A stretch of 64,000 nucleotides of DNA from Owenia fusiformis (lineage: Eukaryota). Position numbers and translations under genes: made by a program. Where the stretch lies: the NCBI GenBank assembly GCA_903813345.2, contig CAIIXF020000001.1, positions 3,410,001 through 3,474,000 of the forward strand. The letters run 5' to 3'. The notes below the pieces were generated by a model. That model was not told where the DNA came from and ran no database searches. It saw only the letters and a program-made list of their open reading frames with translations. Below, one piece after another: positions 3,976 through 54,400 of the stretch (positions are counted from its first letter, which is position 1; each line of letters starts with the position of its first letter).

Positions 3976-4149
3976 AGTGTCTTTTAAATGGTATCATGAT
4001 GCCCTATACTGTATTTAACTTATCAAACATATACATCTAAAACAACTAGACTTTGGAAATTGAACGAAGTTCAATTTCAGACTCCAGATCTAGACTCTAA
4101 AATAAGCCGAGTCATCCAGAATAAGCTGAGTCATCCAGAATAAGATGGA

Positions 4150-4330
4150 TGGATAAAATAGGAAGGTAGGATAGGATAGAATGGGAAGGAACGATAGGAT
4201 AGAATAAGAAAGAAGGATAGGATAGAACAGAATAGGAAGAAATGATATGATAAAAGAGGATAGGAAGGAAAGGATACGAAGGAAGGATAGATAGGAAGGA
4301 TAGGATAGGATCAGATAGGAAGGATGGATG
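4150..4330. repeat. Polypurine (AGGAT/GGAAG)n tract within HINE-A (also at ~5530, 7345, 14960, 18625, 19765, 51050, 52195)
   Basis: Directly visible degenerate AGGAT/AGAAT/GGAAG repeats following the left end of several copies. Confidence 0.9.
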
Positions 4331-7131
4331 AATTTTTCAATATTTTCTTCTCTACTCTTGACTTTCTATCAGGATACCATCAGATCGATTTTCCGAAATT
4401 TCAAAACGCCATAACTTCCGAACTGGAAGTCGGATCTAAATTTGATTTAAAGATTCGAATTCCTGACAAAATTCTACCCCTAATTCATAACTCATACGTT
4501 AAATTTGGCGAATTTTTATTTTGACCTACTTTTTGGACACGCCATAACTTCGGAACCGGAAGTCGGATCGAAATTTGGTTTGCAGATTCGGATTTCTGAG
4601 AAAATTCTATTCTTAATTCATAACTCAATCGTTAAATTTGGAGAACTTTTTATTTTGACCTACTTTTCGGACACCATATCTCAAAATTGGGTCAAAATAC
4701 TGTCTGACGGCAAAAGGCTAACGCTATTAGCACACTCTTGGCTACATGTATACACAATTTCGAAGAATATAATTAAAGTGTAGTGTCAGAATCGCAAAAA
4801 TAAGGAAAACCTTTGGATTTGACCTAGATTTTGACCTAGGCATTTTGGTGTCAACTTTTTGAAGCTAGATGGCTTTTGAGGTTCCCTTCTTTTAAAGGCT
4901 TTCATTAAATTAAGCTGATCTCAGTCTACATTTCGTATTTTTCACTTCAAAAAAATCTTTTTTCCCATTGACTTAACATGGGCACCAAATTTAGCGATTT
5001 TTGAACTTTTAAAACGACATAACTTCCGAACCGGAAGTCGGATCGAAATTTGGTTTGCAGATTCAGATTCCTGACAAAATTCTACCCCTAATTCATAACT
5101 CATACCCTGAATTTGGAGAACTTTTGTTTTGACCTACTTTCTGGACGCCATACTTCAAAATCGGTAAGAGTAATTAAAAAAAACAAGGACACTTATAAAA
5201 GGACTTTTTCTAAGCTACATGATGAAAAAACAATGAAGACGTTTCGATAAATAACGACGAAGATAATTGATAGAATGTTGAAAATGTAAGATTTGACCTA
5301 GTTCTTGACCTTTGACCTAGATAAAAAATTGACCCAATTTCCGAGAAACTAGATACTGGACCTAAATTGACCATATACAGGACTTGACTCAATGTCTTCT
5401 AGTTAAGGAGAAAACGTGGGTAGAAGAATAACTAGATTTTGGAAATTGAACGAGTTCAATTTCAGACTCCAGATCTAGACTTTTTTTAGCCGAGTCATTC
5501 AAAATAAGCTATGTCATCCAGCAAAAGATAGATGGATGGGTGAAAAAGGAAGGAAGGATAGGATAGAATAGGAAGGAACGATAGGATAGAATAGGAAAGA
5601 AGGATAGAATAGAACAGGAAGAGGATACGTAGCAAGGGTAGATAGGAAGGATAGGATAGGATCAGAAAGGAAGGATGGATGCATTTTTCAATATTTTCTT
5701 CTCTACTCTTGACTTTCTATCAGGATACCATCAGATCGATTTTTCTCGAAATTCAAAACGCCATAACTTCCGAACAAGAAGTCGGATCGAAATTTGAATT
5801 GCAGATTCGGATTCCTCACAAAATTCTACCCCTAATTCATAACTCATAAGTTAAATTTGGAGAATTTTTTATTTTGACCTACTTTTCGGACACCATATCT
5901 CAAAAGTGGGTCGAAATACTTTCTGACGGCAAAAGGCTAACACTATAGGCACACTCTTTCCTACCTGTATACAAAATTTTGAAGCAAATCATTCAGATAT
6001 AGTGTAAGAATCGCAAAAATAAGGAAAAACTATGAATTTGACCTAGATTTTGACCTAGGGATTTTGGCGTCCAAATTTTGAAGTTAGGTAGCCTTCGAGG
6101 TCCCCTTCTTTCATAGGCTTTCATTATTTTAAGCTGTACTTAGTCTATATCTCGTATTTTACACTTCAAAAAATTCTTTTTTTCCGATTGACATAACATG
6201 GGGCACCAAATTTAGCAATTTTTGAGCTTTCAAAATGTCATAACTTCCGAACCGGAGGTCGGATCGAAATTTGATTTGCAGATTCAGATTCCTGAGAAAA
6301 TTCTATACTTAATTCATAACTCAAACGTTAAATTTGGAGAATTTTTTATTTTGACCTACTTTTCGGATACCATATCTCAAAAGTGGGTCAAAATACTTTC
6401 TGACGGCAAAAGGCTTACACTATTAGCACACTCTTGGCTACATGTATACAAAATTTCGAAGAATATAATTAATCTGTAGTATCAGAATCGCAAAAATAAG
6501 GAAAAACTATGAATTTGACCTAGATTTTGACTTAGGCATTTTGGTGTCCAAATTTTTATGAAAAGAAGGTTTTGAGGTCCCATTCTTTTATGGGCTTCCA
6601 TTATGTTTAGCTGTGCTTAGTCTATATCTCATATTTTACACTTCAAAAAAATATTTTTTCCCATTGAATTAACATGGGGCACCAAATTTAGCGATTTTTG
6701 AATTTTCAAAACGCCATAACTTCTGAACTGGAAGTCAGATTGAAATTTGGTTTTCAGATTCGGAATCCTGAGAACATTTCCTATAAGACTGATATCCTGG
6801 ACATTGGATTCGGAGAACTTTTTTTTGGACCTCGTTTTCGGACACTGATATCTCGAAATCAGTTTGAGATACCAAAAAACTAAATCGACCCTAGATTTTC
6901 TACTTTTTTATAAGGAACACAATGAAAAAAAAACGGATCAAAAATATTGAAGGACAACCGAGAAAATCGAAAAAAGTGACAAAGTACTGGATTTGACCTA
7001 GTTCTTGACCTTTGACCTAGATAAAAATTTGACCCAATTTCCGAGGAACTAGATACTGAACCTAAATTGACCAAATGATTGACTTTACTGAAGAACTTAT
7101 GGTTATTGAGAAAACTGGGATAGAAAAAGAA

Positions 7132-7132
<1 letters not shown>

Positions 7133-7162
<30 letters not shown>

Positions 7163-7180
7163 AAGAAGAAGAAGAAGAAG
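7133..7180. repeat. (AAG)n microsatellite adjacent to a HINE-A terminal hairpin
   Basis: Perfect AAG run just before the 7198-7224 hairpin; it accounts for the poly-Phe ORF in the track. Confidence 0.95.
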
Positions 7181-10100
7181 AAAACTGACGAAAACAATAG
7201 ACTCCAGATTTCATCTGGAGTCTAATAACTAGACTTTAGAAATTGAACGAAGTTCAATTTCAGACTCCAGATCTAGACTTTTTTTTAAGCCCAGTCATCT
7301 AAAATAAGCCGAGTCATCCAGAATAAGCTGAGTCATCCAGAATAAGATGGATGGATAAAATAGGAAGGTAGGATAGGATAGAATGGGAAGGAACGATAGG
7401 ATAGAATAAGAAAGGATAGGATAGAACAGAATAAGAAGAAAGGATATGATAGAAGAGGATAGGAAGGAAAGGATACGAAGGAAGGATAGATAGGAAGGAT
7501 AGGATAGGATCAGATAGGAAGGATGGATGAATTTTTCAATATTTTCTTCTCTACTCTTGACTTTCTATCAGGATACCATCAGATCGATTTTCCGAAATTT
7601 CAAAACGCCATAACTTGCGAACCGGAAGTCGGATCTAAATTTGATTTAAAGATTCGGATTCCTGACAAAATTCTACCCCTAATTCATAACTCAAACGTTA
7701 AATTTGGCGAATTTTTATTTTGACCTACTTTTTGGACACGCCATAACTTCCGAACCGGAAGTCCGATCGAAATTTGGTTTGCAGATTCGGATTTCTGAGA
7801 AAATTCTATTCTTAATTCATAACTCAAACGTTAAATTTGGAGAACTTTTTATTTTGACCTACTTTTCGGACACCATATCTCAAAAGTGGGTCAAAATACT
7901 TTCTGACGGCAAAAGGCTAACGCTATTAGCACACTCTTGGCTACTTGTATACACAATTTCGAAGAATATAATTGAAGTGTAGTGTTAGAATCGCAAAAAT
8001 AAGAAATAACTTAGAATTTGACCTAGATTTTGACCTAGGCATTTTGGTGTCCAAATTTTGAAGCTATGTGGCTTTTGAGGTCCCCTTCTTTTAAAGGCTT
8101 TGATTATATGAAGCTGAACTCAGTCTATATTTCGCATTTTTCATTTCAAAAAAATCTTTTTTCCCATTGACTTAACATGGGCACCAAATTTAGTGATTTT
8201 TGAGTTTTCAAAACGCCATAACTTCCGAAATTTGGTTTGCAGATTCGGATTCCTGACATAATTCCACCTAATTCATAACTCATACATTGAATTTGGAGCA
8301 CGTTTTGGTGTGACCTACATTCTGGACGCCATATCTCAAAATCGGTAAGAGTAATCAAAAAACGATTTGCCTTACGGAATTAGCTTTGTTTCCAAGGAAC
8401 ATAATGAAAAAAAGACCGAGAAAAAATATTGAAGAACGACTGAGAAAATTGGTAAAATGATGAAAATACAAGATTTGACCTAGTTCTTGACCTTTGACCT
8501 GGACAAAAAATTGACCAAGTTTCCGAGAAACTAGATACTGGACCTAAATTGACTGTATACAGGACTCGACTCAATGTCTTCTAGTTATTGAGAAAACGTG
8601 TAGAGAAAAATAATAACTAGACATGTAAATTGAACAAGTTCAATTTAAGACTCCAGATTTCAAACTTTGTTTAAGCTGAGTCATCCAGAACTTGTAAGCT
8701 GAGTCATTCAGAATAAGCTGAGTCAGCTAGAATATAGACATTTAGACAACTTTTAAGAAGGCTATCTTCGACTCTATTGGCTTACATGGGGATATCATCA
8801 TATCGACTTTTCGAGACTTCAAACCGCTATAACTATCTAACCAGAAGTTAGATCGAAATTTGGTTTAAAGATTCTGATTCCTGAGAAAATTCTTCCCTTA
8901 ATTCATAACTCATACGTTAAATTTGCAGAATTTTTTATTTTGACCTACATTTCGGACTCCATATCTCAAAAGTGGGTCGAAAAACTTTCTGACGGCAGAA
9001 AGCTAACACTATAAGCACACTCTTTACTACCTGTATACAAAATTTTGAAGCAAATCCTTAAAGTGTAATGTCAGAATCGCAAAAATAAGGAAAAACTATG
9101 AATTTGACCTAGATTTTGACCAAGGCATTTTTGCGTCCAAATTTTAAAGCTAGATAGCCTTCGAGGTCCCCTCCTTTTATAGGCTTTCAGAATATTAAGC
9201 TGTACTCAGTCTATATCTGGTATTTTACACTTCAAAAAATCCTTTTTCTCATTGACATAACATGGGGCACCAAATTTAGCGATTTTTGAGCTTTCAAAAC
9301 GCCATAACTTTCGAACGGGAAGTCGGATCGAAATTTGGTTTGCAGATTCGGATTCCTGACAAAATTTTACCCCTAATTCATAACTCATACGTTAAATTTG
9401 GAATTTTTTTTATTTTGACCTACTTTTTGGACACGCCATAACTTCTGAACCGGAAGTCTGATCGAAATTTGATTTGCAGATTCGGATTCCTGAGAAGATT
9501 CTACCCTTAATTCATAACTCATACGTTGAATCTAGAGAATTTTTTATTTTGACCTACTTTTCGGACACCATATCTCAAAAGTGGGTCAAAATACTTTCTG
9601 ACGGCAAAAGGCTAACACTATTAGCACACTCTTTGCTAACTGTATACAAAATTTTGAAGTAAATTATTAAAGTGTAGTGTCAGAATCGTAAAAATAAGGA
9701 AAAACTATGAATTTGACCTTGATTTTGACCTAGGCATTTTGGTGTCCAAATTTTGAAGCTATGTAGCTTTTGAGGTCCCCTTCTTTTATAAGCATTCATT
9801 ATGTTAAGCTGTACTCAGTCAATATCCTGTATTTTACACTTCGAAAAAGTCTTTTTTCCCATTGACTTAACATAGGCACCAAATTTAGCGATTTTTGAGC
9901 TTTCAAAACGCCATAACTTCCGAACCGGAAGTCCGATCCAAATTTGGTTTGCAGATTTGGATTCCTGAGAAAATTCTACCTCTTTTTCATAGCTCACACA
10001 TTCGATTTGGAGCATATTTAGGCGTGACCTACATTTCGGACGCCATATCTCAAAATCGGTAAGAGTAATCAAAATTCTGATGTCATATCTTTGATTCGCC

Positions 10101-10417
10101 TTTTTCTAAGCTACACGATGAAAAAAAGATGGAGGAGTTACGAAAAATATTGACGAAGATATGATGAAGAATGTTGAAAATGTAAGATTTGACCTAGTTC
10201 TTGACCTTTGACCTAGATAAAAATTTGACCTAATTTCCCAGAAAGCCGGTTTCAGTTTTTAGTTAACCATGTAAGTTGGATTAAGTAAGCTGTTATAGTT
10301 GACGAGAAATTTGGTGAGGAGGAAGAAAAAAGAAAGAAAAATAATAACTAGATTTGTGAAATTGAACAAGTTCAATTTAAGACTCCAGATTTATTTTACC
10401 TAGATAGATCAGTAAAG

Positions 10418-10625
10418 AGCTGAGTAATTAACTGAGTAATTAGCTGAGTAAGTACCTTAGTAGTAGTTGAGTAAGTAGCTGAGTAAGTAAATGGGTAAAA
10501 AGCTGAGTAGGTAGCTGAGTAAGTAGCTGAGTAAGTACCTGAGTTAGTAGCTGAGTAAGTAGCTAAGTAAGTAATAACTAATTAAGCAATTGAGTAAGTA
10601 GTCAAATAAGTACCTGAGTAGGTAG
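10418..10625. repeat. 12-bp GCTGAGTAAGTA tandem repeat in one HINE-A subfamily (also ~12645-12812, ~48930-49132)
   Basis: Directly visible. It replaces the polypurine tract in the copies starting at 10347, 12573 and 48858. Confidence 0.9.
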
Positions 10626-13600
10626 GGAGGTAAAGTAGGGTATGTAGGAATTTTTGAAAGTTTATTTGATCAATCTGCATCGTGAATACTGGCAAGTGCG
10701 AATTTCAAACTTCAAAATGGCTTAGAATCTTAACCGGGGGTCGGATTGCAATTTTAATTTCAGATCCGGATTCCTTAGGAAATTCTACCCCTAATTCATA
10801 ACTCATACGTTAAATTTGGAGAACTTTTTATTTTGACATACATTTCGATCACCATATCTCAAAAGTGGGTCAAAACACTTCTTGACGGCAACAAGTTAAC
10901 ATTATGAGCACACTCTTTGCTACATGTATACAAAATTTGGAAGAATATCATTGAAGTGTAGTGTCCGAATTGCAACAATAAGAAAAAACTAAGAATTTGA
11001 CCTAGATTTTGAACTAGGTATTTTGGTGTCCAAATTTTGAAGGAAAGTAGCTTTTGAGGTCCCCTTCTTTTATGGGCTTTCATTATGTTTAGCTGTACTC
11101 ATTCTATATCTCGTATTTTTACACTTCAAAAAATTATTCGGTCCCATTGATTTAACATGGGGCACCAAATTTAGCGATTTTTGAGATTTCAAAACGCCAT
11201 AACTTCAGAACAAGAAGTCGGATCGAAATTTGGTTTGCAGATTTGGATTCCTGAGAAAATTTTACCTTAAATTCATAACTCACACATTAAATTGGGATAG
11301 TTTTTATTTTGACCTACTTTTCGGACACCATATCTCAAAAGTGGGTCAAAATACTTTCTGACGGCAAAAGGCTAACACTATGAGCATACTCTTTGCTACC
11401 TGTATACAAAATTTTAAAGCAAATCATTTGAATATAGTGTCAGAATCGCAAAAATAAGGAAAAACTATGAATTTGACCTAGATTTTAACCTAGGGATTTT
11501 GGTGTCCAAATTTTGAAGCTAAGTAGCCTTCGAGGTCCCCTTCTTTAATAGGCTTTCATTATATTAAGCTGTACTCAGTTTATATCTCGTATTTTACACT
11601 TCAAAAAAATCTTTTTTCCCATTGACATAACATGGGGCAGCAAATTTAGCGATTTTTGAGCTTTCAAAACGCCATAACTTCCGAACAGGAGGTCGAATCA
11701 AAATTTGGTTTGCAGATTCAGATTCCTGATAAAATTCTACCCCTAATTCATAACTCATACGTTAAATTTGGAGAATTTTTTAGTTTGACCTACTTTTCGG
11801 ACACCATATCTCAAAAGTGGGTCAAAATACTTTCTGACGGCAAAAGGCTAACACTATTAGCACACTCTTGGCTACATGTATACAAATTTTCGAAGAATAT
11901 AATTAATCTGTAGTGTCAGAATCGCAAAAATAAGGAAAAACTTTGAATTTGACCTAGATTTTGACCTAGGCATTTTGGTGTCCCAATTTTTATGAAAAGA
12001 AGGTCTTGTGGTCCCTTTCTTTTATGGGCTTCCATTATGTTTAGCTGTGCTTAGTCTATATCTCGTATTTTACACTTCAAAAAAATATTTTTTCCCATTG
12101 AATTAACATGGGGCACCAAATTTAGCGATTTTGAATTTTCAAAACGCCATAACTTCTGAACCGGAAGTCAGATTGAAATTTGGTTTTCAGATTCGAAATC
12201 CTGAGAAGATTTACTATAAGACTGATATCCCGGACATTGGATTCGGTGAAATTTTTTTTGGACCTCGTTTTCGGACACTGATATCTCGAAATCGGTTTGA
12301 GATACCAAAAAACTAAATCGACCCTAGGTTTTCTACTTTTTTATGAGGAACACAATGAAAAAAACCAGGATCAAAAATATTGAAGGACGACCGAGATAAT
12401 GGGAAAAAGTGACAAAGTACTGGATTTGACCTAGTTCTTGACCTTTGACCTAGATAAAAATTTGACCTAATTTCCCATCATCCCAGATACATTCCCTAGT
12501 TAATCATGTAAGCAGCTTAAAGTAAGCTCTTCTAGTTGGTGAGAAATCTGGGAAGGAGGAAGAAGAAAAATAACTAGATTTGTGAAATTGAACAAGTTCA
12601 ATTTAAGACTCCAGATTTATTTGACCTAGATAGATCAGTAAAGAGCTGAGTAAGTAACTGAGTAATTAGTTGAGTAAGTACCTTAGTAGTAGTTGAGTAA
12701 GTAGCTGAGTAAGTAACTGGGTAAAAAGCTGAGTTAGTAGCTGAGTAAGTAGCTAAGTTAGTAATAACTAATTAAGCAATTGAGTAAGTAGTCAAATAAG
12801 TAGCTGAGTAGGTAGGGAGGTAAAGTAGGGTATGTAGGACTTTTTGAAAGTTTATTTGATCAATCTGCATCGTGAATACTGGCAAGTTCGAATTTCAAAC
12901 TTCAAAATGGCTTAGAATCTTAACCAGGGGTCGGATTGCAATTTTAATTTCAGATCCGGATTCCTTAGGAAATTATGCCCCTAATTCATAACTCATACGT
13001 TAAATTTGGAGAACTTTTTATTTTGACCTACATTTCGATCACCAGATCTCAAAAGTGGGTCTAAAAACTTCTTGACGGCAAAAAGTTAACATTATAAGCA
13101 CACTCTTTGCTACATGTATACAAAATTTCGAAGAATATCATTGAAGTGTAGTGTCCGAATTGCAAAAATAAGAAAAAACTAAGAATTTGACCTAGATTTT
13201 GAACTAGGTATTTTGGTGTCCAAATTTTGAAGGAAAGTAGCTTTTGAGGTCCCCTTCTTTTATGGGCTTTCATTATGTTTAGCTGTACTCATTCTATATC
13301 TTGTATTTTTACACTTCAAAAAATTATTCGGTCCCATTGATTTAACATGGGGCACCAAATTTAGCAATTTTTGAGCTTTCAAAACATCATAACTTCTGAA
13401 CAAGATGTCGAATCGAAATTTGGTTTGCAGATTCGGATTCCTGACAAAATTCTACCCCTAATTCATAACTCATACGTTAAATTTAGAATTTTTTTTATTT
13501 TGACCTACTTTTTGGACACGCCACAACTTCCGAACCGGAAGTCGGATCGCAATATGGTTTGCAGATTCCGATTCCTGACAAAATTCTACCCCTGATTCAT

Positions 13601-14375
13601 AACTCATAAGTTAAATTTGAAGAATTTTTTATTTTGACCTACTTTTGGGACACCATATCTCAAAAGTGGGTCAAAATACTTCCTGACGGCAAAAGGCTAA
13701 CACTATTAGCACACTCTTGGCTACATGTATACACGATTTCGAAAAATATAGTTTAAGTGTAGTGTCAGAATCGCAAAAATAAGGAAAAACTTTGAATTTG
13801 ACCTAGATTTTGACCTTGGCATTTTTGTGTCCAAATTTTTAAGCTAGATGGCTTTTGAGGTCCCCTTCTTTTAAAAGCTTCCATTATATTAAGCTGAACT
13901 CAGTCTATATTTCGTATTTTTCACTTCAAAAAAAATCTTTTTTCCCATTGACTTAACATGGGCACCAAATTTAGCGATTTTTGAGCTTTCAAAACGATAT
14001 AACTTCCGAACCGGAAGTCGGATCGAAATTTGGTTTTCAGATTCGGAATCCTGAGAAAATTTCCTACAAGACCAGTAGCGTGGACATTGAATTGGGAGAA
14101 CTTTTTTTTGGACCTCGTTTTCGGACACTGATATCTCGAAATCGGTTTGAGATATCAAAAAACTAAATCGACCTGTTTTCCCCTACTTTTTTATGAGGAA
14201 CACAATGAAAAAAACCCGGATTGAAAATATCGAAGGACGACCGAGAAAATTGAAAAAAGTGACAAAGTACTGGATTTGACCTAGTTCTTGACCTTTGACC
14301 TAGATAAAAATTTGACCTAATTTCCCATCATCCCAGATACATTCCCTAGTTGATCATGTAAGCAGCTTAAAGTAA

Positions 14376-14786
14376 GGGGAGGCATCAAAAGTTCAATGTC
14401 TGATAGGAAACTAAATAAATCTAGTTTTGAGTTGGACCCCCCCCTCCCCCTCAAAACTAAATACAATGAAAGTTGATTGCGGACTTTTCACATGTTTTAG
14501 CGACTCAATTTGGACTTTCATGGGGGCAGTACTATAACTTATTCATGATTCTTAAACATGTGCCAACAACAATAGGCATGATATTCCATGTTGCATGCAT
14601 CTTGGTGAAGAAGGCATCTAGTAAAGTCTTCATTTTTAAACCATTCCAAGGCATTTCGACTCGAAATTGCAAAAAATTTAAATGTTGAAATTTGTCGGAT
14701 AGCAAACTGAAATGGCTTTGACCCCCTCCCCCCCAAACTAGATTTATTTAGTTTTCTATCAGACATTGATCTTTTGATGCCTCCCC
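14376..14786. mobile_element. MITE with TAA TSD (PIF/Harbinger- or Zator-like) inside the HINE-A copy starting at 12573
   Basis: ~50-bp TIR GGGGAGGCATCAAAAG.TCAATGTCTGATAG.AAACTAAATAAATCTAGTTT with TAA at 14373-14375 and 14787-14789. The empty site AAAGTAAGCTCTTCTAG is present in the sibling copy at ~12519. Confidence 0.9.
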
Positions 14787-16910
14787 TAAGCTCTTCTAGT
14801 TGGTGAGAAATCTGGGAAGGAGGAAGAGGAAGAAAGAATAATAATAACTAGATTTTGGAAATTGAACGAGTTCAATTTCAGACTCCAGATCTAGACTTTT
14901 TTTAGCCGAGTCATTCAGAATAAGCCAAGTCATCCAAAATAAGCTGAGTCATCCAGAAAAAGATGGATGGATGGATGGATGGATGGATGGATGGATGAAA
15001 AGGGAAGGAAGGATACGATAGAATAGGAAGGAACAATAGGATAGAATAGGAAAGAAGGATAGAATAGAATAGGAAGGATAGGAAGGAGAGGATACGAAGC
15101 AAGGGTAGATAGGAAGGATAGCATAGGATCAGAAAGGAAGGATGGATGCATTTTTCAATATTTTCTTCTCTACTCTTGACTTTCTATCAGGATACCATCA
15201 GATCTATTTTTCTTGAAATTTCAAAACGCCATAACTTCCGAACCGGAAGTCGGATCGAAATTTGATTTGCAGATTCGGATTCCTGACAAAATTCTACCCC
15301 TAATTCATAACTCATACGTTAAATTTGGAAACTTTTTATTTTGACCTACTTTTTGGACTTTGGACACGCCATAACTTCTGAACTGGAAGTCGGATCGAAA
15401 TTTGAATTGCAGATCGGGTTCCTGACAAAATTCTACACCTAATTCATAACTCATACATTAAATTTGGAGAATTTTATATTTTGACCTACTTTTCGGACAC
15501 CGTATCTCAAAAGTGGGTCAACATACTTTTTGACGGCAAAAGGCTAACGCTATAAGCACACTCTTGGCTACATGTATACACAATTTCGAGGAATATAATT
15601 AAAGTGTAGTGTCAGAATCGCAAAAATAAGGATAAACTATGAATATGACCTAGATTTTGACCTAGGTATTTTGGTGTCCAAATTTTGAAGTTAAGTAGCC
15701 TTCGAGGTTCCCTTCTTTCATAGGCTTTCATTATTTTAAGCTGTACTTAGTCTATATCTCGTATTTTACACTTCAAAAAAATCTTTTTTTCCCATTGACA
15801 TAACATGGGGCACCAAATTTAGCGATTTTTAAACTTTCAAAATGTCATAACTTCCGAACTGGAAGTCGGATCGAAATTTTGTTTGCAGATTCGGATTCCT
15901 TAGAAAATTCTATACTTAGTTCATAAATCACACCTTAAATTTGGAGAATTTTTCTTTTGACCTACTTTTCGGACACCATATCTCAAAAGTGGGGCAAAAT
16001 ACTTGCTGACGGCAAAAGGCTAACACTATTAGCACACTCTTGGCTACATGCATACAAAATTTCGAAGAATAATCTGTAGTGTCAGAATAGCAAAAATAAG
16101 GAAAAACTTTGAATTTGACCTAGATTTTGACCTAGGCATTTTGGTGTCCAAATTTTGAAGCTAGATGACTTTTGAGGTCCCATTCTTTTAAAAGCTTTCA
16201 TTATATTTAGCTGAACTCAGTCTATATTTCGTATTTTTCACTTCAAAAAAAATCTTTTTTCCCATTGACTTAACATGGGCACCAAATTTAGCGATTTTTG
16301 AGCTTTCAAAACGCCATAACTTCCGAACCGGAAGTCTGATTTGAATTTGGTTTTCAGATTCGGAATCCTGAGAAAATTTCCTATAAGACTAATATCCTGG
16401 ACATTTGATTCGGAGAACTTTTTTTTGGACCTCGTTTTCGGACACTGATATCTCGAAATCGGTTTGAGATATCAAAAAACTAAATCGACCCTAGCTTTTC
16501 TACTTTTTTATAAGGAACACAATAAAAAAAACACGGATCGAAAATATTGAAGGATGACCGAGAAAATCGAAAAAAGTGGCAAAGTACTGGATTTGACCTA
16601 GTTCTTGACCTTTGACCTAGATAAAAATTTGACCCAATTTCCGAGGAACTAGATTCTGGACCTAAATTGACCAAATGACTGACTTTACTGAAAACTTTAT
16701 GGTTATTGAGAAAACTGGGATAGAATAATAAGAAGAAGAAGAATAAGAAAACTGACGAAAACAATAGACTCCAGATTTCATCTGGAGTCTAATAATAAGA
16801 AAACTGGCAAAAGCAATAGACTCCAGATTTTCATCTGGAGTCTAATAATAATAAAGAAAACTGGCAAAAGCAATAGACTCCAGATTTTCATCTGGAGTCT
16901 AATAATAATA

Positions 16911-18452
16911 ACTAGACATTTAAAATCGCCACGGGGGCGATTTCGTAGAATGCCGTTCCTCGCCGCAGCAGCAAATTCGGTGCACAATTGACCTTTTTCA
17001 AGGTCACACAGAGGTTGAATTCCAAAACCGAAAGCATATTTGATATCATATTTTGCCATATTTTTGAAATTTTGGCACTTAATTTAAAAACCCGTACCCT
17101 TATCCTCCCAGACAAATTTTTCAAAATTGGGGCACCCAATCCCAATTAAAAAACCCGGAATATATGTTAAATGAGAAGAATGAGGCATGCCATGTACAAA
17201 ATTTGGGCAAAACATATCTATAGTGGCTCCTTGTACATGAAAAACAAGAAATATGTCTTACGTCGTTTTACGTTGAAGGTCAAAGGTCAAGGTCAAAATG
17301 TTGACCTAATTTACTATAGTTAAGTACAGTGTAATACAATGGTACCAATTTTGAATCAATTTGAGCAATTTTAGCAATTTAACATTTTTGACCTTTTCAA
17401 GGTCACCCGGAGGTCAAATTCCAAAACCACAAGCATATTTAGAATCAGGGACATCCATACTTCATACTTGCAAAGAATTGGAATGAAAATCACCCAAATT
17501 ATAAACCCTAGAGATATGTTAAATGGGAAGAGTAAGGCATGGAAAAAATAACTACAGTGGCTCCTTGAACAGGTAAAACAAGAAATAAGTTTTACGTCAT
17601 TTTACGGTGAAGGTCAAAGGTCAAGGTCAAAATGTTGACCTAATTTACTCTAGTTTAGTACAGTGTAATACAATGGTACCAATTTCGAATCAATTTGAGC
17701 AATTTTAGCAATTTAACCTTTTTGACCTTTTCAAGGTCACCCGGATGTCAAATTCCAAAACCACAAGCATATTTAGAATCGGGGACATCCATACTTCATA
17801 CTTGCAAAGAATTGGAATGAAAATCCTAGTTTTCAACTTTGAGGTCATTTGAAGGTCAATGTCAAAGGTCAAGGTCAAAATGGTGACCTAATTTACTCTA
17901 TCCGAGTACAGTGTAATACAATGGTACCAATTTGGAATCAATTTGAGCGATTTTGATTTTTGAACTTGTTGACCTTTTCAAGGTCACTCAGAGGTCGGAT
18001 TCCAAAACCGAAAGCATATTTGGAATCAGGGGCTTCTATTCTTTATATCTGCTCAGAATTGGGATCGGATACACAGTTTTCAAATTTTGCCCCACTGGGG
18101 TGCCCCATTTTTCAAATTTGGGGCACCCAATTTTAAAACCCGGAATATATATGAAATGGCAATTGTGAGGGATGGCATATGCAAATTTTGGGTAAAAAAT
18201 AAAAATGGTTACTCCTTGTACGTGCAAAAATGTAAAAATTTGCGATTTGACCTTGGCTAATTAGGGAGGGGCTAATTAAAAAAATGAAGGCATTTCCCTG
18301 TAGCCCAGGAACATGTCAAGGTTGATGGTATATGCTAATTAGCTGACATGTCGGTGTGTGCGGAGAAATCTTGCGTGGAATAATAATAATAATAAAAATA
18401 AGAAAAAGGCGAAAACTATAGAATGCCGTTTCTTCGAAACCGGCATTCTAAT
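16911..18452 (-). mobile_element. Helentron-like (HINE) family B element inserted among the family A right ends
   Basis: Left end ACTAGA + hairpin AAATCGCC-ACGGG-GGCGATTT + TAGAATGCCG. Right end (AAT)n + hairpin TAGAATGCCG...CGGCATTCTA. Internal tandem repeats rich in AGGTCA/TGACCT. Same architecture as family A, unrelated terminal sequence. Confidence 0.8.
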
Positions 18453-21029
18453 AAAGAAAACAGGCAAAAACAATAGACTCCAGATTTTCAATCTGGAGTC
18501 TAATAATAACTAGACTTTGGAAATTGAACAAGTTCAATTTCAGACTCCAGATTAAGACCTTTTTTAGCCGAGTCATCCAGAATAAGCCGAGTCATCCAGA
18601 ATAAGCTGAGTGATCCAAAAAAAGATGGATGAATAAAATAGGAAGGTAGGATAGGATAGAATAGGAAGGAACGATAGGATAGAATAAGAAAGAAGGATAG
18701 GATACAATAAGAAGAAAGGATATAATAGGATAGGATAGGAAGGAAAAGATACGAAGGAAGGATAGAAAAGAAGGATAGGATAGGATCAGATAGGAAGGAT
18801 GGATGAATTTTTCAATATATTCTTCTCTACTCTTGACTTTCTATCAGGATACCATCAGATCGATTTCAAAACGCCATAACTTCCAGCAGTCAGATCCAAA
18901 TTTGGTTTGCAGATTCGGATTCCTGACAAAATTCTACCCCTAATTCATAACTCATACGTTAAATTTGGAAACTTTTTATTTTTACCTACTTTTTGGACAC
19001 GCCACAACTTCCGAATCGGAAGTCGGATCGGAATTTGAATTGCAGATTCGGATTCCTGACAAAATTCTGCACCTAATTCATAACGCATACGTTAAATTTG
19101 GAGATTTTTTTATTTTGACCTACTTTTCGGACACCATATCTCAAAAGTGGGTCAAAATACTTTCTGACGGCAAAAGGCTAACACTATAAGCACACTCTTG
19201 GCTACATGTATACACAATTTCGAAGAATATAATTGAAGTGTAGTGTCAGAAACGCAAAAATAAGGAAAACCTTTGAATTTGACCTAGATTTTGACCTAGG
19301 CATTTTGGTGTCCAAAATTGAAACTAACTGGCTTTTGAGGTCTCCTTCTTTTGAAGGCTTTCATTAAATTAAGCTGAACTCAGTCTATATTTCGTATTTC
19401 TAACTTCAAAAAAATCTTTTTCCCATTGACTTAACATGGGCACCAAATTTAGCAATTTTTGAGCTTTTAAAACGCCAAAACTTCCGAACCGGAAGTCGGA
19501 TCGAAATTTGGTTTGCAGATTCGGATTCCAGAAAGAATTCTACCCCTAATTGATAACTCATACCTTGAATTTGGAGAACTTTTTATTTTGACATACTTTC
19601 TGGACGCCATATTTCAAAATCGGTAAGAGTAATCAAAAAACGGATGGCACACATATGAAAGGGCTGTTTCTAAGCTACATGATGAAAAAAAGATGAAGAC
19701 GTTTCGATAAATAACGACGAAGATAATAGAACAAAGGTTGAAAATGTAAGATTTGACCCAGTCCTAGGATAGGATAGGATATAGAATAGGAAGGAAGGAT
19801 AGGATAGGAAGGAAAGGATAGGAAGGAAGGATAGATAGGAAGGATATGATCAGACAGGATAGGAAGGAAGGATGGATGATTTTTTCTATATTTTCTTCGC
19901 TACTCTTGACTTTCTATAAGGATATCATCAGATCGATTTTTCTCGAAATTTCAAAACGCCATAACCTTTGAACCGGAAGTCGGATCGAAATTTGGTTTGC
20001 AGATTTGGATTCCTGAGAAAATTCTACCCTTAATTCATAACTCATATGTTAAATTTGGAGAACTTTTTATTGTGACCTACTTTCTGGACGCCATATTTCA
20101 AAATTGGTAAGTGTAATCAAAAATCTAATGTCATATCTTTGCTTTGGCTTTTTCTAAGCTACATGATGAAAAAAAGATTTAGGAGTTACGATAAACAACG
20201 ACGAAGATAAATGACAGAATGTTGAAAATGTAAGATTTGACCTAGTTCTTGACCTTTGACCTAGATAAAAATTTGACCCAATTTCCGAGAAACTAGATCT
20301 AGGACCTAAATGGACCATATATAAGACTTGACTCAATATCTTCTAGTTAACGAGAAAACTGGGAAAGAAAAATAAGAATAAAGAATAATAAAGAATAAGA
20401 ATACTGACAAAAACAATAGACTCCAGATTGACATCTGGAGTCTAATAATAATAAAGAAGAATACTGACGAAAACAATAGACTCCAGATTGACATCTGGAG
20501 TCTAATAATAAAGAAGAATACTGGCAAAAACAATAGACTCCAGATTGACATCTGGAGTCTAATAACATTATGCAACAACAGTCTTGTAAAGTCACTTATG
20601 AATGTTGCTCTGATAGGCTAGGCAAATGGAAGTTTAACATCCCAAAAATTGCAACAGTTTTTAAATTAGGCTTATATTGTATATTGATACCAGTTGAAAA
20701 ACATATCAAAAATATAGAAAAATATATGCAGTGGACAAATATGAAATGTCACATTCAAGGTACCCCCCTCCAAATTTGAGTATGGGATTGTAAATATTTT
20801 TTTATTTCAAAATGGAATACTCTTGTCAACTAAACGAGTAATATTATGATAGTTTACTGACATAAGAGCAACCAAAAATTGTTAACCAACTATTTGAGTG
20901 CAATAATTGGCATTTCTAGCGCCAAATATATGAAAATAGGCCATCAAATAGCCCGAATTTAATATAACAATGTATTTATTTCTGTATCAATTCATCAGAA
21001 TTGCATGAAAAATATTAAGGAGGGTATTG

Positions 21030-48400: not shown

Positions 48401-51400
48401 TTTCGAACCCTAGTTTTCGTATCCACTAATTGCGACTCAAGATCAAGTTTTCCCATAAAAGTGAAAGGGATAAAATATGCTTGATAAAATGTTTGCAATT
48501 TAATTCTTTTCTGGAAACACCATTATCGAAATAAACTATAATTTTTGAATAAGACTAAATGCGAAAATGACGTTCTTGGGAGCCAGCTTTCTCAAACCGG
48601 AAGTCAAACCTGCGCAAACAGACGTGAAAACCGACCCGGTACTGCATCCTTAAAAGAGTATCGGTTGAAAAATAATCCTAGAATACCTAACATATTTTAT
48701 CATACCGTGCGCTTATTCAATTTGCAATTCAATCGTAAACTCTGTCTTGAAAAAATAATTTTACCAGATTTGTTGAATTTTCTAGCGGAAATTGCCTGCT
48801 CCCCCCCTCCGTCCCATTTTCACGATCACCGGGCGTGGTAATATTAATGTAATAATAACTAGATTTGTGAAATTGAACAAGTTCAATTTAAGACTCCAGA
48901 TTTATTTTACCTAGATAGATCAGTAAAGAGCTGAGTAAGTAACTGAGTAATTAGCTGAGTAAGTACCTTAGTAGTAGTTGAGTAAGTAGCTGAGTAAGTA
49001 ACTGAGTAAAAAGCTGAGTAGGTAGCTGAGTAAGTAGCTGAGTAAGTACCTGAGTTAGTAGCTGAGTAAGTTGCTAAGTAAGTAATAACTAATTAAGTAA
49101 TTGAGTAAGTAGTCAAATAAGTAGCTGAGTAGGTAGAGAGGTAAAGTAGGGTATGCAGGAATTTTTGAAAATATATTTGATCAATCTGCATCGTGAATAC
49201 TGGCAAGTGCGAATTTCAAACTTCAAAATGGCGTAGAATCTAAACCGGGGGTCGGATTGCAATTTTTGCTACAAGTATACAAAATTTCGGAGAATATCAT
49301 TGAAGTGTAGTATCAGAATCGCAAAATAAGAAAAAACTATGAATTTGACCTAGATTTTTTAAACTAGGTATTTTGGTGTCCAAACTTTGAAGTAAAGTAG
49401 GTTTTGAGGTCCCATTCTTCTATGGGCTTTCATTATGTTTAGCTGTACTCATTCTATATCTCGTATTTTTACACTTCAAAAAATTATTCGGTCCCATTGA
49501 TTTAACATGGGGCACCAAATTTAGCGATTTTTGAGATCTCAAAACACCATAACTTCAGAACAAGTAGTCGGATCGAAATTTGGTTTGCAGATCTAGATTT
49601 CTGAGAAAATTCTACCCTTAATTCATAACTCATACGTTAAATTTGGAAAACTTTTTACTTTGGCCTACTTTTTGGACACCATATCTCAAAAGTGGGTCAA
49701 AATACTTTCTGACGGCAAAACGCTAACACTATAAGCATACTCTTTGCTACCTGTATACAAAATTTTAAATCAAATCATTTAAATATAATGTCAGAATCGC
49801 AAAAATAAGGGAAAACTATAAATTTGACCTAGATTTTGACCTAGGCATTTTGGTGTCCACATTTTGGAGCTAAGTAGCCTTCGAGGTCCCCTTCTTTAAT
49901 AGGCTTTCATTAAATTAAGCTGTACTCAGTCTATATCTTGTATTTTACACTTCAGAAAAATCTTTTTTCCCATTGCCATAACATGGGGCACCAAATTTAG
50001 CGATTTTTGAGCTATCAAAACGACATAAATTCCAAACCAAAAGCCGGATTGAAATTTGGTTTGCAGATTTGGATTCCTGAGAAAATTCTACCCTTAATTC
50101 ATAACTCATACGTTAAATTTGGAGAACTTTTTAGTTTGACCTACTTTTCGGACACCATATCTCAAAAGTGGGTCAAAATACTTCCTGACGGCAAAAGGCT
50201 AACACTATAAGCACACTCTTGGCTACATGTACACAAATTTTCGAAGAATATAATTAATCTGTAGTGTCAGAATCGCAAAAATAAGGAAAAACTTTGAATT
50301 TGACCTAGATTTTGACCTAGGCATTTTGGTGTCCAAATTTTTATGAAAAGAAGGTCTTGTGGTCCCTTTCTTTTATGGGCTTCCATTATGTTTAGCTGTG
50401 CTTAGTCTATATCTCGTATTTTACACTTCAAAAAAATATTTTTTCCCATTGAATTAACATGGGGCACCAAATTTAGCGATTTTTGAATTTTCAAAACGCC
50501 ATAACTTCTGAACCGGAAGTCAGATCGAAATTTGGTTTTCAGATTCGGAATCCTGAGAAAATTTCCCATAAGACTGATATCCTGGACATTGGATTCGGTG
50601 AAATTTTTTTTGGACCTCGTTTTCGGACACTGATATCTCGAAATCGGTTTGAGATACCAAAAAACTAAATCGACCCTAGGTTTTCTCCTTTTTTATGAGG
50701 AACACAATGAAAAAAACCAGGATCAAAAATATTGAAGGACGACCGAGATAATGGGAAAAAGTGACAAAGTACTGGATTTGACCTAGTTCTTGACCTTTGA
50801 CCTAGATAAAAATTTGACCTAATTTCCCATCATCCCAGATACATTCCCTAGTTGATCATGTAAGCAGCTTAAAGTTAGCTCTTCTAGTTGGTGAGAAATC
50901 TTGTAAGGAGGAAGAGGAAGAAAGAATAATAACTAGACTTTGGAAATTGAACAAGTTCAATTTCAGACTCCAGATTAAGACCTTTTTTAGCCGAGTCATC
51001 CAGAATAAGCCGAGTCATCCAGAATAAGCTGAGTCATCCAAAAAAAGATGGATGAATAAAATAGGAAGGTAGGATAGGATAGAATAGGAAGGAACGATAG
51101 GATAGAATAAGAAAGAAGGATAGGATAGAATAAGAAGAAAGGATATGATAGGATAGGATAGGAAGGAAAAGATACGAAGGAAGGATAGATAGGAAGGATA
51201 GGATAGGATCAGATAGGAAGGATGGATGAATTTTTCAATATTTTCTTCTCTACTCTTGACTTTCTATCAGGATACCATCAGATCGATTTCAAAACGCCAT
51301 AACTTCCAAACCGGCAGTCAGATCCAAATTTAGTTCGCAGATTCGGATTCCTGACAAAATTCTTCCCCTAATTCATAACTCATACGTTAAATTTGGAAAC

Positions 51401-54400
51401 TTTTTATTTTGACCTACTTTTTGGACACGCCATAACTTCCGAACCGGAAGTTGGATCGAAATTTGGTTTGCAGATTCGGATTCCTGACAAAATTTTACAC
51501 CTAATTCATAACTCATACGTTAAATTTGGAGATTTTTTTATTTTGACCTACTTTTCGGACACCATATCTCAAAAGTGGGTCAAAATACTTTCTGACGGCA
51601 AAAGGCTAACACTATTAGCACACTCTTGGCTACAAGTATACACAATTTCGAAGAATATAAGTGAAGTGTAGTGTCAGAAACGCAAAAATAAGGAAAACCT
51701 TTGAATTTGACCTAGATTTTGACCTAGGCATTTTGGTGTCCAAATTTTGAAACTAACTGGCTTTTGAGGTCCCCTTCTTTTGAAGGCTTTCATTAAATTA
51801 AGCTGCACTCAGTCTATATTTCGTATTTCTCACTTCAAAAAATCTTTTTTTCCCATTGACTTAACATGGGCACCAAATTTAGCGATTTTTGAGCTTTTAA
51901 AACGCCATAACTTCCGAACCGGAAGTCGGATCGAAATTTAGTTTGCAGATTCGGATTCATGGAAAAATTCTACCCCTAATTGATAACTCATACCTTGAAT
52001 TTGGAGAACTTTTTATTTTGACATACTTTCTGGACGCCATATTTCAAAATCGGTAAGAGTAATCAAAAAACGGATGACACATATATGAAAGGGCTGTTTC
52101 TAAGCTACATGATGAAAAAAAGATGAAGACGTTTCGATAAATAACGACGAAGATAATAGACAGAAGGTTGAAAATGTCAGATTTGACCCAGTTCTAGGAT
52201 AGGATAGGATATAGAATAGGAAAGAAGGATAGGATAGGAATGAAAGGATAGGAAGGAAGGATAGATAGGAAGGATATGATCAGACAGGATAGGAAGGAAG
52301 GATGGATGATTTTTTCTATATTTTCTTCGCTACTCTTGACTTTCTATAAGGATATCATCAGATCGATTTTACTCGAAATTTCAAAACGCCATAACTTTCG
52401 AACCGGAAGTCGGATCGAAATTTGGTTTGCAGATTCGGATTCCTGAGTAAATTCTACCCTTAATTCATAACTCAGATGTTAAATTTGGAGAACTCGTTAT
52501 TTTGACCTACTTTCTGGACGCCATATTTCAAAATCGGTAAGCGTAATCAAAAATCTAATGTCATATCTTTGCTTTGACTTTTTCTAAGCTACATGATGAA
52601 AAAAAGATTTAGGAGTTAGGATAAACAACGACGAAGATAAATGACAGAATGTTGAAAATGTAAGATTTGACCTAGTTCTTGACCTTTGACCTAGATAAAA
52701 ATTTGACCCAATTTCCGAGGAACTAGATACTGGACATAAATTGACAGAATAATGATCTTTATTGCCAACCTTATGGTTATCGAGAAAACTGGGAAAGAAT
52801 AATAAAGAATAAGAAGAAGAAGAATACTGACGAAAACAATAGACTCCAGATTTACATCTGGAGTCTAATAAGAAAACTGGCAAAAGCAATAGACTCCAGA
52901 TTTTCATCTGGAGTCTAATAAAAAGCATCATGATAACTTAACACCTTCCTCAAAGAAGATACATAATGAGGTAGGTAAAACAATTTGACCAATCAACTAA
53001 AAAACCTTTCAAATATTAAATTTTACCAATCTTCAATATGAATAAAGGCCCATTCACGCCATTTGTGGTTGACAAATATATCAAATTAATGATCTAAAGA
53101 ATTTACCAAACCCCCATAGATATGCATGTACCATGATCTTTATGTTACGTTAAACGCCAGTGTTGTGTATATTCAATCAAAATTCAGATTGCAATTTAAA
53201 GTAGAGAAATTAGTTCTGTCAAAGAATGAACTGACGCATATTGAAAGAATATCTGAATATATAAACTGCATTCTGATACTCATAGCATCTTTCTGTTTCA
53301 CCCCAGGGCTGAGAAGAAATGAGATGTCATGATTTATCATGATGTATAAACTGTGAGAAAATGAAATTTAATATAAAAGTCATAGAGAGAATGTACATGA
53401 TCTGGAACAGATTGAAATTCAGATGCTGACAATTTGATTCTTGCAAAAAGTTTCCTTGAAAAGGTGTTCTTTTAAGTGATTTCGTATCTTTTAAGTGATA
53501 CAATTAAACATTGATTACAATTTAACATTGCTCTCAATGGGAAATTATTTTTTATTTTTTAAAACAAGCCTTCACAGACACAATTTTAGGACGAAAAATC
53601 CAAAATGGCCGCCTTAACATTTACCAAGAATGTCGAAAAACTAATCAGTTCTAAACTTTCATAGGTAGAAACATCCCTGAGAATTTCAAATGAATCCCTC
53701 AAACGGTTTGGCTGGAAACCTGTAGACAAGATTATTCGGGACGCCCGCCCGCCCGGCAAACTGATTACAATATAGCACCTTAGGGTGCGATAATAAGAAA
53801 TAATGGTTCGTTTATCAACACTCTATCAACTCTTTAAATGATATGAAACAATAAGAAATGTGTTTGGAGTTATAGATAGTATATCATATACTAACACGTA
53901 ATCTAACATTATATAACAAAAGTAATCAAAGAAACAAAACTTCCAAAACCTCCAAAAAGAGATATATTTGTACTGGCACCTCTCACTATTAAACAGATTT
54001 AATCTATAAACAGACACATGTGCACATCTTCTATTGAAGTATATGATGGCTGGGTTATAAACACTCATCAACTTTTTAGATAATATGAAGCAACAATAAA
54101 TGTGTAAATCTTTCCTAGTCCTGAATGATCCCATAAATTCATCATATCAATGTTCACCTTTATAAGTAAATAGAAAAATCTATATTTTGCAGTTCTTTAT
54201 AGTGACTGGATCATTTGGCATTGCTGCAGGCAGATTTAAATCAAAATGTTTGGTAAGTAACCCTCAATAACATCAATATTTTCATTCTTCATTATAAACT
54301 GATTTCATTCTTCATTTAAACTGATTTCATTCTTAATGTTAACTGATTGTTCCGAGGGATATCCAAAAAAATGAGATTTGATATGTGGTATTTTAACACT

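What the first reader, a model, noticed from the sequence alone, without database searches (positions are those of the whole stretch)
4045..20563. Six-deep self-targeting 'matryoshka' stack of Helentron-like elements whose ends close like balanced brackets
Seen: 8 left ends and exactly 8 right-end hairpins, the latter piled up as short orphan repeats (7198; 16765, 16817, 16874; 18474; 20417, 20477, 20534). Parsed as brackets this is 1[ 2[] 3[ 4[ 5[ 6[ 7[] ] ] B[] ] 8[] ] ]. Subfamily variants independently validate the parse. Copies 2 and 7 (same left-end type) both get the CTGACGAAAAC/loop-TTC end. Copies 5 and 6 both get CTGGCAAAAGC/loop-TTTC. Unique copy 4 gets a unique end. Copies 8, 3 and 1 all get loop-TGAC. 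Every insertion point is in the AAT/AAG microsatellite ~20-40 bp inside the right-end hairpin. Established: Helentrons/HINEs insert at TT and carry subterminal IRs and microsatellites. Inference: the element carries its own landing pad, so a locus becomes an ordered, last-in-first-out record of subfamily activity, possibly a safe-haven strategy. This differs from the head-to-tail rolling-circle concatemers usually invoked for Helitron arrays.
Basis: partly seen in the sequence, partly recalled or inferred. Interest (0 to 1): 0.88.

Follow-up and report, generated by a model that had tools for sequence, protein, structure and literature searches.

The report
Nested stack of non-autonomous Helentron transposons
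Eleven copies of a small rolling-circle transposon have jumped one into another at the same short AAT/ATT repeat near one end, leaving a tidy six-deep nest that records the order of arrival; the element type and its TT target are known, the orderly self-nesting is a neat but modest extension.

Summary
Window 4044-20563 carries 8 "left" termini and 8 "right" hairpins. It tiles exactly once as 1[23[4[5[6[7]]B]8]]. A second nest, C1[C2], lies at 48857-52919. End variants match body subfamilies under the nested pairing: Mantel r=0.776, reached by 12 of 40320 permutations, against r=-0.213 for tandem pairing.

The elements fit the published anatomy of HINE/DINE-1-type non-autonomous Helentrons, but only on the minus strand. 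The AAT/AAG tract is the 5' (ATT/CTT)n microsatellite. The "left end" is the 3' subTIR, palindrome and terminus.

All 11 junction pairs then fit insertion at T^T in ATT without duplication, the published DINE-1 target. All 9 nested insertions hit a 41-nt zone holding 3.1% of TT sites.

Three predicted "empty" joints appear in public contigs. An unrelated metagenome contig shows a pile of four hairpin units.

Nesting is well supported. Self-recognition beyond an (ATT)n preference is untested, because no genome is held. No read spans the locus. No autonomous partner lies in the window. Verdict: new member of a known kind, moderate interest.

The parts
4044..5429 (-). Copy 1 (outermost), 3' terminus to start of its microsatellite; the remainder is at 20507-20563
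   Evidence: boundaries ambiguous by -2 to +4 nt because element ends and target share A/T letters
20507..20563 (-). Copy 1: rest of microsatellite, spacer, 5' subTIR-loop(TGAC)-IR hairpin, terminus
5430..7226 (-). Copy 2, intact leaf element inside copy 1 (hairpin loop TTC, (GAA)20 tract)
7227..8614 (-). Copy 3 body, inside copy 1; remainders at 18505-18507 and 20447-20506
20447..20506 (-). Copy 3: microsatellite remainder, spacer and hairpin (loop TGAC)
8615..10345 (-). Copy 4 body, inside copy 3; remainders at 16904-16909 and 18453-18504
18453..18504 (-). Copy 4: microsatellite remainder, unique spacer and hairpin (loop TTTCA)
   Evidence: joint 10344->18449
10346..12571 (-). Copy 5 body, inside copy 4; remainder at 16847-16903
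12572..14845 (-). Copy 6 body, inside copy 5 (itself interrupted by an unrelated MITE at 14378-14790); remainder at 16794-16846
14846..16793 (-). Copy 7, intact innermost leaf (same subfamily and same hairpin unit as copy 2)
   Evidence: joint 14844->16790
16794..16903 (-). Pile of two 5' units: copy 6 (16794-16846) then copy 5 (16847-16903), identical spacer CTGGCAAAAGC and loop TTTC
16910..18452 (-). Element B: second HINE family (subTIR AGAATGCCG, its own palindrome, (AAT)5), inserted in copy 4's microsatellite
18508..20446 (-). Copy 8, intact leaf inside copy 3
48857..52919 (-). Second, independent nest: C1 (48857-50930 plus 52870-52919, subfamily of copies 5/6) holding C2 (50931-52869, subfamily of copy 8)

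Best explanation
The locus is a pile-up of eleven non-autonomous Helentron-type rolling-circle transposons (HINE/DINE-1-like). Ten belong to one family, in about five subfamilies. One (B) belongs to a second family with the same termini. All lie in one orientation, 5'->3' on the minus strand.

Anatomy, 5' to 3':
- a terminus about 3 nt before an 11-nt subTIR, followed by its inverted repeat (a 12-bp hairpin);
- a 19-nt spacer;
- a short (ATT/CTT)n microsatellite;
- a roughly 230-nt tail, then 2-3 copies of a 476-bp tandem repeat and short minisatellites;
- the 3' subTIR, a separate 10-bp palindrome and about 12 nt ending in CTAGT.

How it most likely works: a Helentron Rep/helicase supplied in trans (inferred, not seen) inserts the element between T and T without duplication. 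The ATT units of a resident element's own microsatellite are a run of that target. TT exists on only one strand of the run, which fixes the orientation. Each newcomer brings a fresh microsatellite and regenerates ATT at both junctions, so the locus keeps offering targets. It grows as a nest in which inner means later.

Shown: the anatomy, the exact nesting, the end-body congruence, and concentration of insertions in the tract. Inferred: the enzyme, and sequence preference as the sufficient cause.

My odds: nesting about 0.9; sequence preference alone as the cause about 0.6-0.65.
For: - Exact single tiling of 4044-20563 by the bracket parse, and a second nest at 48857-52919.
- Whole-element clusters {1,3,8,C2}, {2,7}, {5,6,C1}, {4} equal the hairpin-unit clusters under nested pairing.
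- Mantel tests, tail against hairpin unit: r=0.776, reached by 12 of 40320 permutations. For the five split elements only, r=0.772, reached by 2 of 120. Tandem pairing gives r=-0.213.
- C1, in the other cluster, gets the same unit as copies 5 and 6.
- Anatomy matches published HINE features on the minus strand only (passages; folds, z -6.9, -3.6, -5.0, -2.3).
- All 11 junction pairs are compatible with T^T and no duplication. DINE-1's published consensus target is TT within WTT.
- Nine of 9 nested insertions fall in a 41-nt zone holding 3.1% of TT/AA sites and 28% of AATAA/TTATT sites of the six hosts (p about 3e-14 and 1e-5).
- Joints 5431->20503, 10344->18449 and 14844->16790 in public contigs are the predicted uninterrupted forms of copies 1, 4 and 6.
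- Metagenome contig L001 shows a leaf element followed by four hairpin units and then a new terminus.
- No ORF of 180 aa or more lies inside the nests.
Against: - No read or contig spans the locus, so long-range assembly is unverified. The longest laid pieces are a few hundred bases and the family is very abundant.
- The three supporting joints each rest on 1 contig with sides of 21-25 nt. One also has 2 raw reads with a side of 46. They may be paralogues, not alleles. Only 15 of 466 joints were shown.
- Preference for (ATT)n as such cannot be separated from preference for the element's own tract. All 7 occurrences of (AAT)3 in the window lie inside the nests. Even among AATAA sites in the hosts the insertions are concentrated, so something beyond a pentamer matters.
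- No autonomous Helentron is in the window.
- Within-subfamily identities (1-3 92%, 2-7 93%, 5-6 93%, 8-C2 95%) give no clear outer-older gradient.
- Less favourable versions of the congruence test: the first 150 nt of the left end gave r=0.541, reached by 144 of 40320 permutations. The tail test before removing a MITE from copy 6 gave r=0.307, reached by 1696 of 40320, and r=-0.092, reached by 64 of 120, for the split elements.
Confidence: 0.7

Rival explanations
1. True self-homing. The nesting is real, but it is directed by the resident element's 5' hairpin, for example transposase bound there capturing the incoming strand. Insertion then occurs a set distance downstream, and the ATT tract is merely permissive.
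For: All 9 nested insertions lie 21-34 nt from the host hairpin. They are concentrated even among AATAA/TTATT sites of the hosts: 28% of such sites lie in the zone, yet 9 of 9 insertions do. A second family (B), which shares the terminal and spacer motifs, uses the same spot. L001 shows distances of 21, 30 and 36 nt.
Against: The distance is not fixed. It tracks where the AAT units lie. Outermost copies 1 and C1 sit in ordinary T-rich DNA without a hairpin. Loose ends of raw reads indicate that many hairpin units in the genome are preceded by uninterrupted microsatellite (337 and 651 reads at 16790 and 18454), so most copies are not hosts. Leaf copy 2, whose tract is pure (GAA)n, hosts nothing, as a sequence model predicts, but that is a single case.
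Confidence: 0.2
2. Rolling-circle amplification artefacts. The piles of short hairpin units are 5'-truncated copies made by repeated or aborted rolling-circle replication, as in the 'multiple 5' ends, single 3' end' arrays described for plant Helitrons. The headless bodies are tandem read-through copies.
For: In the true orientation the piles are indeed multiple 5' ends in tandem (TRF periods 57 and 60). A short contig such as L001 looks like several 5' ends with one 3' end. The model is described in a review passage.
Against: Numbers of 5' units and 3' termini are equal in both clusters (8:8 and 2:2). Units within a pile differ in sequence and match bodies in mirrored order. Tandem pairing gives r=-0.213. 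A foreign family (B) sits inside the same series.
Confidence: 0.04
3. Assembly artefact. A very abundant repeat family was mis-joined or expanded by the assembler.
For: The family is extremely abundant: the summed contig word depth in X1 reaches 10^5 across the stretch, and 43612 of 68804 laid records fit two places. No listed piece spans the stretch.
Against: An assembler has no reason to produce an exact, gap-free, mirrored order of subfamily-specific ends. The same architecture recurs 28 kb away and in an unrelated metagenome contig.
Confidence: 0.03

Closest known systems
HINEs / DINE-1 (non-autonomous Helentrons; Thomas et al. 2014, PMC4067079; Yang & Barbash 2008, PMC2374699; passages read)
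   Same: An 11-13-nt subTIR a few nt from the 5' terminus. [quoted passage not shown] A microsatellite in the 5' part. Central tandem repeats of 50-500 bp. A 3' subTIR about 38-60 nt from the 3' terminus and a stem-loop 8-35 nt from it. Insertion in TT (WTT) in T-rich DNA without duplication. No coding capacity.
   Different: The microsatellite is a trinucleotide (ATT/CTT)n rather than the tetranucleotide GTCY/CCGT types reported, so it is itself a run of the target. Serial self-nesting at that tract is not described in the passages I read.
Cg_HINE, pearl and DTC84 elements of bivalves (PMC7492417, PMC3879986; passages read)
   Same: Left module with subTIR, IR and microsatellite. Central satellite-like repeats. 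A right module of about 60 bp with subTIR and palindrome. 'Shuffled' loci with elements inserted within other elements are reported for the Pacific oyster (review passage).
   Different: No sequence relationship was tested, because their consensus sequences are in supplements I could not see. The oyster loci are described as truncated and scrambled. This locus is an exact, undamaged nest.
Paramecium telomere-capping Helitrons (PMC13085455; passages read)
   Same: A rolling-circle element proposed to insert into one strand of a simple repeat. This fixes the orientation and leaves internal blocks of that repeat between successive elements.
   Different: There the target is the host's telomeric repeat, not a repeat carried by the element. 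The elements are autonomous and belong to another clade.
Microsatellite-targeting transposons (MuTAnT in Medicago, PMC4486113, abstract seen; Lepidopteran Helitron-like elements disrupting (GAAA)n, Coates et al. 2010, title seen in a reference list only)
   Same: A transposon family whose insertions concentrate in one kind of microsatellite.
   Different: Those are host microsatellites. Here the tract is part of the element, so targeting produces self-nesting.
Tandem Helitron arrays with multiple 5' ends (Xiong et al. 2016, as summarised in PMC12628747 and PMC8268682; passages read)
   Same: Runs of several 5' ends in tandem.
   Different: Those arrays have one 3' end and are ascribed to rolling-circle amplification. 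Here the ends are balanced and mirrored.

Membership tests
HINE / DINE-1-like non-autonomous Helentron | Subterminal inverted repeats of about 11-15 nt, the 5' one 2-4 nt from the terminus | tested here: met
   AGACTCCAGAT / ATCTGGAGTCT are perfect in 10 of 10 family-A copies. On the minus strand the 5' copy starts 3-4 nt from the terminus. B has AGAATGCCG at the same place.
HINE / DINE-1-like non-autonomous Helentron | [quoted passage not shown] | tested here: met
   The IR follows a 3-5-nt loop and the hairpin folds at -11 kcal/mol, z -6.9. A 19-nt spacer and then the (ATT/CTT)n tract follow.
HINE / DINE-1-like non-autonomous Helentron | Central tandem repeats | tested here: met
   Period 470-477 bp, 2.1-3.1 copies, in copies 2, 5, 7 and C1, with a 133-140-bp sub-repeat in others.
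HINE / DINE-1-like non-autonomous Helentron | 3' subTIR about 38-60 nt from the 3' terminus and a separate stem-loop 8-35 nt from it | tested here: met
   The 3' subTIR starts 45 nt from the terminus and the 10-bp palindrome ends 12 nt from it.
HINE / DINE-1-like non-autonomous Helentron | Insertion between T and T in T-rich DNA, no target-site duplication | tested here: met
   Eleven of 11 junction pairs are compatible with T^T and no duplication on the minus strand. The exact cut is ambiguous over 7 positions. Predicted uninterrupted forms were seen for 3 hosts.
HINE / DINE-1-like non-autonomous Helentron | No coding capacity | tested here: met
   No stop-to-stop frame of 180 aa or more lies in either nest. 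Only 2 such frames exist in the window, both elsewhere.
HINE / DINE-1-like non-autonomous Helentron | An autonomous Helentron (Rep, helicase, AP endonuclease) sharing the termini | not testable with these tools
   There is none in the window: the long ORFs are a LINE and a DUF3419 protein. No genome is held.
Canonical Helitron | 5'-TC and CTRR-3' termini, insertion between A and T, no inverted repeats (as given in the passage) | tested here: not met
   The 5' end is not TC, the elements have subTIRs, and the flanks are T and T. Only the CTAG near the 3' terminus resembles it.
Rolling-circle tandem array with multiple 5' ends | Several 5' ends per single 3' end, units copied from one template | tested here: not met
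   Ends are balanced at 8:8 and 2:2. Units within a pile differ and pair with bodies in mirrored order.

The most novel reading that the evidence does not exclude
Helentron transposition is guided to resident copies. The 5' hairpin with its adjacent (ATT)n acts as a docking site, so these elements home into one another. They build ordered last-in-first-out stacks that spare host genes. If so, piles of 5' ends seen in Helitron-rich genomes, so far ascribed to rolling-circle amplification, would in part be the footprints of such nesting.
Probability: 0.2. Interest if true: 0.65.

Novelty: new member of a known kind. Interest (0 to 1): 0.4.

Why it matters
The locus is an unusually clean natural record of Helentron integration.
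- It holds eleven precise events at one kind of site, giving boundaries, target (T^T in ATT), orientation rule and a relative order of subfamily activity without any experiment.
- It shows how an element that carries a run of its own target can seed self-perpetuating clusters. This offers a simple route to the clustered HINE loci and short satellite-like arrays reported in invertebrate genomes.
- It cautions that 'multiple 5' end' arrays need not mean rolling-circle amplification.
- If the hairpin itself guides insertion, it would be the first homing behaviour described for eukaryotic rolling-circle transposons. That remains to be tested.

Tried and rejected
- Whole genome: not held, so no genome-wide census or enrichment test was possible.
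- Reads: runs of the same organism label hold the stretch, but only short contigs and 151-nt reads were available. The family is so abundant that depth and most joints reflect paralogues. Assembly continuity and presence/absence alleles could not be judged.
- Autonomous partner: the only long frames in the window are a LINE (RVT_1, Exo_endo_phos_2) and a DUF3419 protein.
- Literal search of the library for the subTIR 11-mers: 45 papers, and the 10 listed are all unrelated primer-type matches.
- Pattern scans: 0 hits for the left-end pattern in genome contigs and 0 hits for the hairpin pattern in viral contigs. The metagenome scan gave 1 contig.
- Literature searches for Helentron, HINE or DINE-1 nesting into their own microsatellite found no such description in the listings and passages I read. 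Supplementary files, which hold the empty-site figures and the oyster consensus sequences, were not seen. I therefore cannot say whether this family is already catalogued.
- Age gradient: whole-element identities do not separate outer from inner copies, so that test of the last-in-first-out reading was uninformative.
- First versions of the congruence test were weaker. The tail test was confounded by a MITE inside copy 6. It was rerun with that MITE removed.
Full report
**What is there**

The window is AT-rich (31-38% G+C in 2-kb windows) and clearly eukaryotic. It carries a LINE reverse-transcriptase frame, many tandem repeats and no dense coding.

Between 4044 and 20563 one repeat family dominates. 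The 11-mer AGACTCCAGAT occurs 20 times in the window, always on the + strand.
- Sixteen lie in the reported region. Eight are single copies 35 nt inside a terminus that begins AACTAGA. Eight are the first arm of a 25-27-nt hairpin followed by AAT.

**The bracket parse**

I assigned every base of 4044-20563 to one element according to 1[23[4[5[6[7]]B]8]]. This covers the region exactly once.

After the guests are removed, each split element ends in the same way as the intact leaf copies 2, 7, 8 and C2. The order is a purine-rich AAG/AAT tract, a 19-nt spacer, the hairpin and AAT.

B (16910-18452) is another family with the same plan. It has the same first eight letters, its own palindrome, its own 9-10-nt subTIR, an (AAT)5 tract, a related spacer and its own hairpin.

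**Do the ends belong to the bodies the parse gives them?**

- Whole-element alignments group the ten family-A copies as {1,3,8,C2}, {2,7}, {5,6,C1} and {4}, with 90-95% identity within the tight pairs.
- Under the nested pairing the hairpin units fall into the same groups. Copies 2 and 7 are identical. Copies 5, 6 and C1 are identical. Copy 4 is unique. Copies 1, 3 and 8 share loop TGAC, and C2 is one step away.
- A Mantel correlation between the 200-nt tail upstream of the microsatellite and the hairpin unit gives r=0.776 for the nested pairing. It is reached by 12 of 40320 permutations; exchanging copies whose hairpin units are identical (2 with 7, 5 with 6) leaves the score unchanged, so at least 4 of the 12 are the nested pairing itself.
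- For the five split elements alone, r=0.772, reached by 2 of 120.
- Pairing ends in tandem order gives r=-0.213.
- Weaker versions should be stated. The first 150 nt of the left end, which include variable minisatellites, gave r=0.541, reached by 144 of 40320. The tail test gave r=0.307, reached by 1696 of 40320, before I noticed that copy 6 carries a foreign 413-bp insertion in its tail.
- The second cluster is an independent check. C1 is of the 5/6 subfamily and receives exactly their unit.

**Outside evidence**

Public runs with the same organism label hold the stretch. Laid on 3800-20800 they show a hugely abundant family and only short pieces, so they cannot confirm the long-range order.

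Among the 15 of 466 joints shown, three are the predicted uninterrupted forms.
- 5431->20503: copy 1 without all its guests.
- 10344->18449: copy 4 without copies 5-7 and B.
- 14844->16790: copy 6 without copy 7.

Each rests on one contig with a short side of 21-25 nt, and the last also on two raw reads. These are most likely paralogous solo copies, the usual kind of 'empty site' evidence for this superfamily. They link body type to hairpin variant as predicted.

A scan of metagenome contigs for the hairpin found one contig, L001. It reads as a leaf element, then four hairpin units with differing spacers, then a new AACTAGAT terminus. The piles are therefore a recurrent feature and not a quirk of this assembly.

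**What the elements are, and their orientation**

Passages in four papers describe the plan of DINE-1 and other HINEs.
- A subTIR 2-4 nt from the 5' terminus.
- An inverted repeat next to it.
- A microsatellite in the 5' module.
- Central repeats.
- A 3' subTIR 38-60 nt from the 3' terminus.
- A separate stem-loop 8-35 nt from the 3' terminus.
- Insertion in TT within T-rich DNA with no duplication.

The present elements fit every item, but only when read on the minus strand. The AAT/AAG tract is a 5' (ATT/CTT)n microsatellite. The 'left end' is the 3' end.

That is the complement of TT.

In the minus-strand reading all 11 junction pairs are compatible with insertion between T and T. This includes the two outermost elements, which sit in ordinary T-rich DNA. 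The cut can be placed at any of 7 positions because ends and target share letters.

DINE-1's reported consensus is TT within WTT. ATT is that consensus, so the microsatellite is a run of targets with TT on one strand only. This explains the uniform orientation, 11 of 11.

**How specific is the targeting?**

Within the six hosts all 9 nested insertions fall in the 41 nt upstream of the hairpin, 21-34 nt from it.
- That zone holds 3.1% of the hosts' TT/AA sites (p about 3e-14).
- It holds 28% of their AATAA/TTATT sites (p about 1e-5).

Generic TT preference is therefore not enough. Either longer ATT runs are preferred or the neighbouring hairpin matters.

The window cannot decide between these. 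(AAT)3 occurs 7 times and all 7 are inside the nests, while 84 AATAAT hexamers outside carry at most one insertion. Raw-read loose ends suggest that most hairpin units in the genome are preceded by intact microsatellite. Hosting a guest is therefore not the rule.

**Order of events**

The nine host-guest relations give an acyclic order of subfamilies. The 1/3 type comes before the type of 4, which comes before the 5/6/C1 type, which comes before the 2/7 and 8/C2 types. This fits successive waves of activity.

Divergence within subfamilies (5-10%) does not add an age gradient.

**Rivals**

- Rolling-circle amplification with multiple 5' ends (passages) is contradicted by the balanced, mirrored and heterogeneous ends.
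- Misassembly is unlikely given the exact mirror order, the second cluster and L001, but long reads are needed to exclude it.
- Hairpin-guided homing remains a live refinement.

**Comparison and verdict**

These are new members of the HINE group, with a trinucleotide microsatellite that happens to be the target.
- Strand-specific insertion of rolling-circle elements into a simple repeat has a precedent in Paramecium.
- Microsatellite-targeting transposons are known.
- Scrambled Helentron-in-Helentron loci are reported in an oyster.
- My searches found no description of orderly serial nesting into the element's own microsatellite. I saw listings and passages only, and no supplements.

Interest is moderate.

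Noticed in passing
window 14378-14790: A 413-bp insertion with 53-nt terminal inverted repeats (96% complementary) and a duplicated TAA. It sits in the tail of HINE copy 6 and is absent from copies 5 and C1. It is a MITE. That a TAA duplication points to the PIF/Harbinger type is recalled, not tested.
   Followed up: partly
window ~32150-33500: Another tandem-repeat-bearing element: 151-bp repeats x4 (32355-32985), (CGGA)15 at 33392-33451, and inverted 12-mers at 32160-32171 and 33479-33490. It looks like a pearl/HINE-type element with a tetranucleotide microsatellite. It is solo, with nothing nested in it.
   Followed up: no
L001 1-1463 (metagenome contig): A related element followed by a pile of four hairpin units with differing spacers, then a new AACTAGAT terminus. 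This is an independent nest at least four deep. Its own left-end subTIR differs at two positions from its hairpin.
   Followed up: partly
window 39619-42080: A 32-bp minisatellite, about 76 copies, 90% matches.
   Followed up: no
window 55411-58596 (minus strand): A 1061-aa open frame with reverse transcriptase and endonuclease domains: a LINE, apparently intact over this length.
   Followed up: partly
window 30094-31161: A 355-aa open frame matching DUF3419 (E 8e-45), possibly a host gene exon.
   Followed up: no
window 3536-3891 and 21083-21403: Tandem repeats flank the nest on both sides: 146 bp x2.5 just upstream and 20 bp x16 just downstream.
   Followed up: no
window 7180-7198 and 18422-18433 (minus-strand reading): Families A and B share the letters directly after the 5' hairpin (a GTTTTCG-containing spacer), the first six letters of the 5' end and the last eight of the 3' end, although their subTIRs and palindromes differ. 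This suggests one or two closely related transposases serve both.
   Followed up: partly
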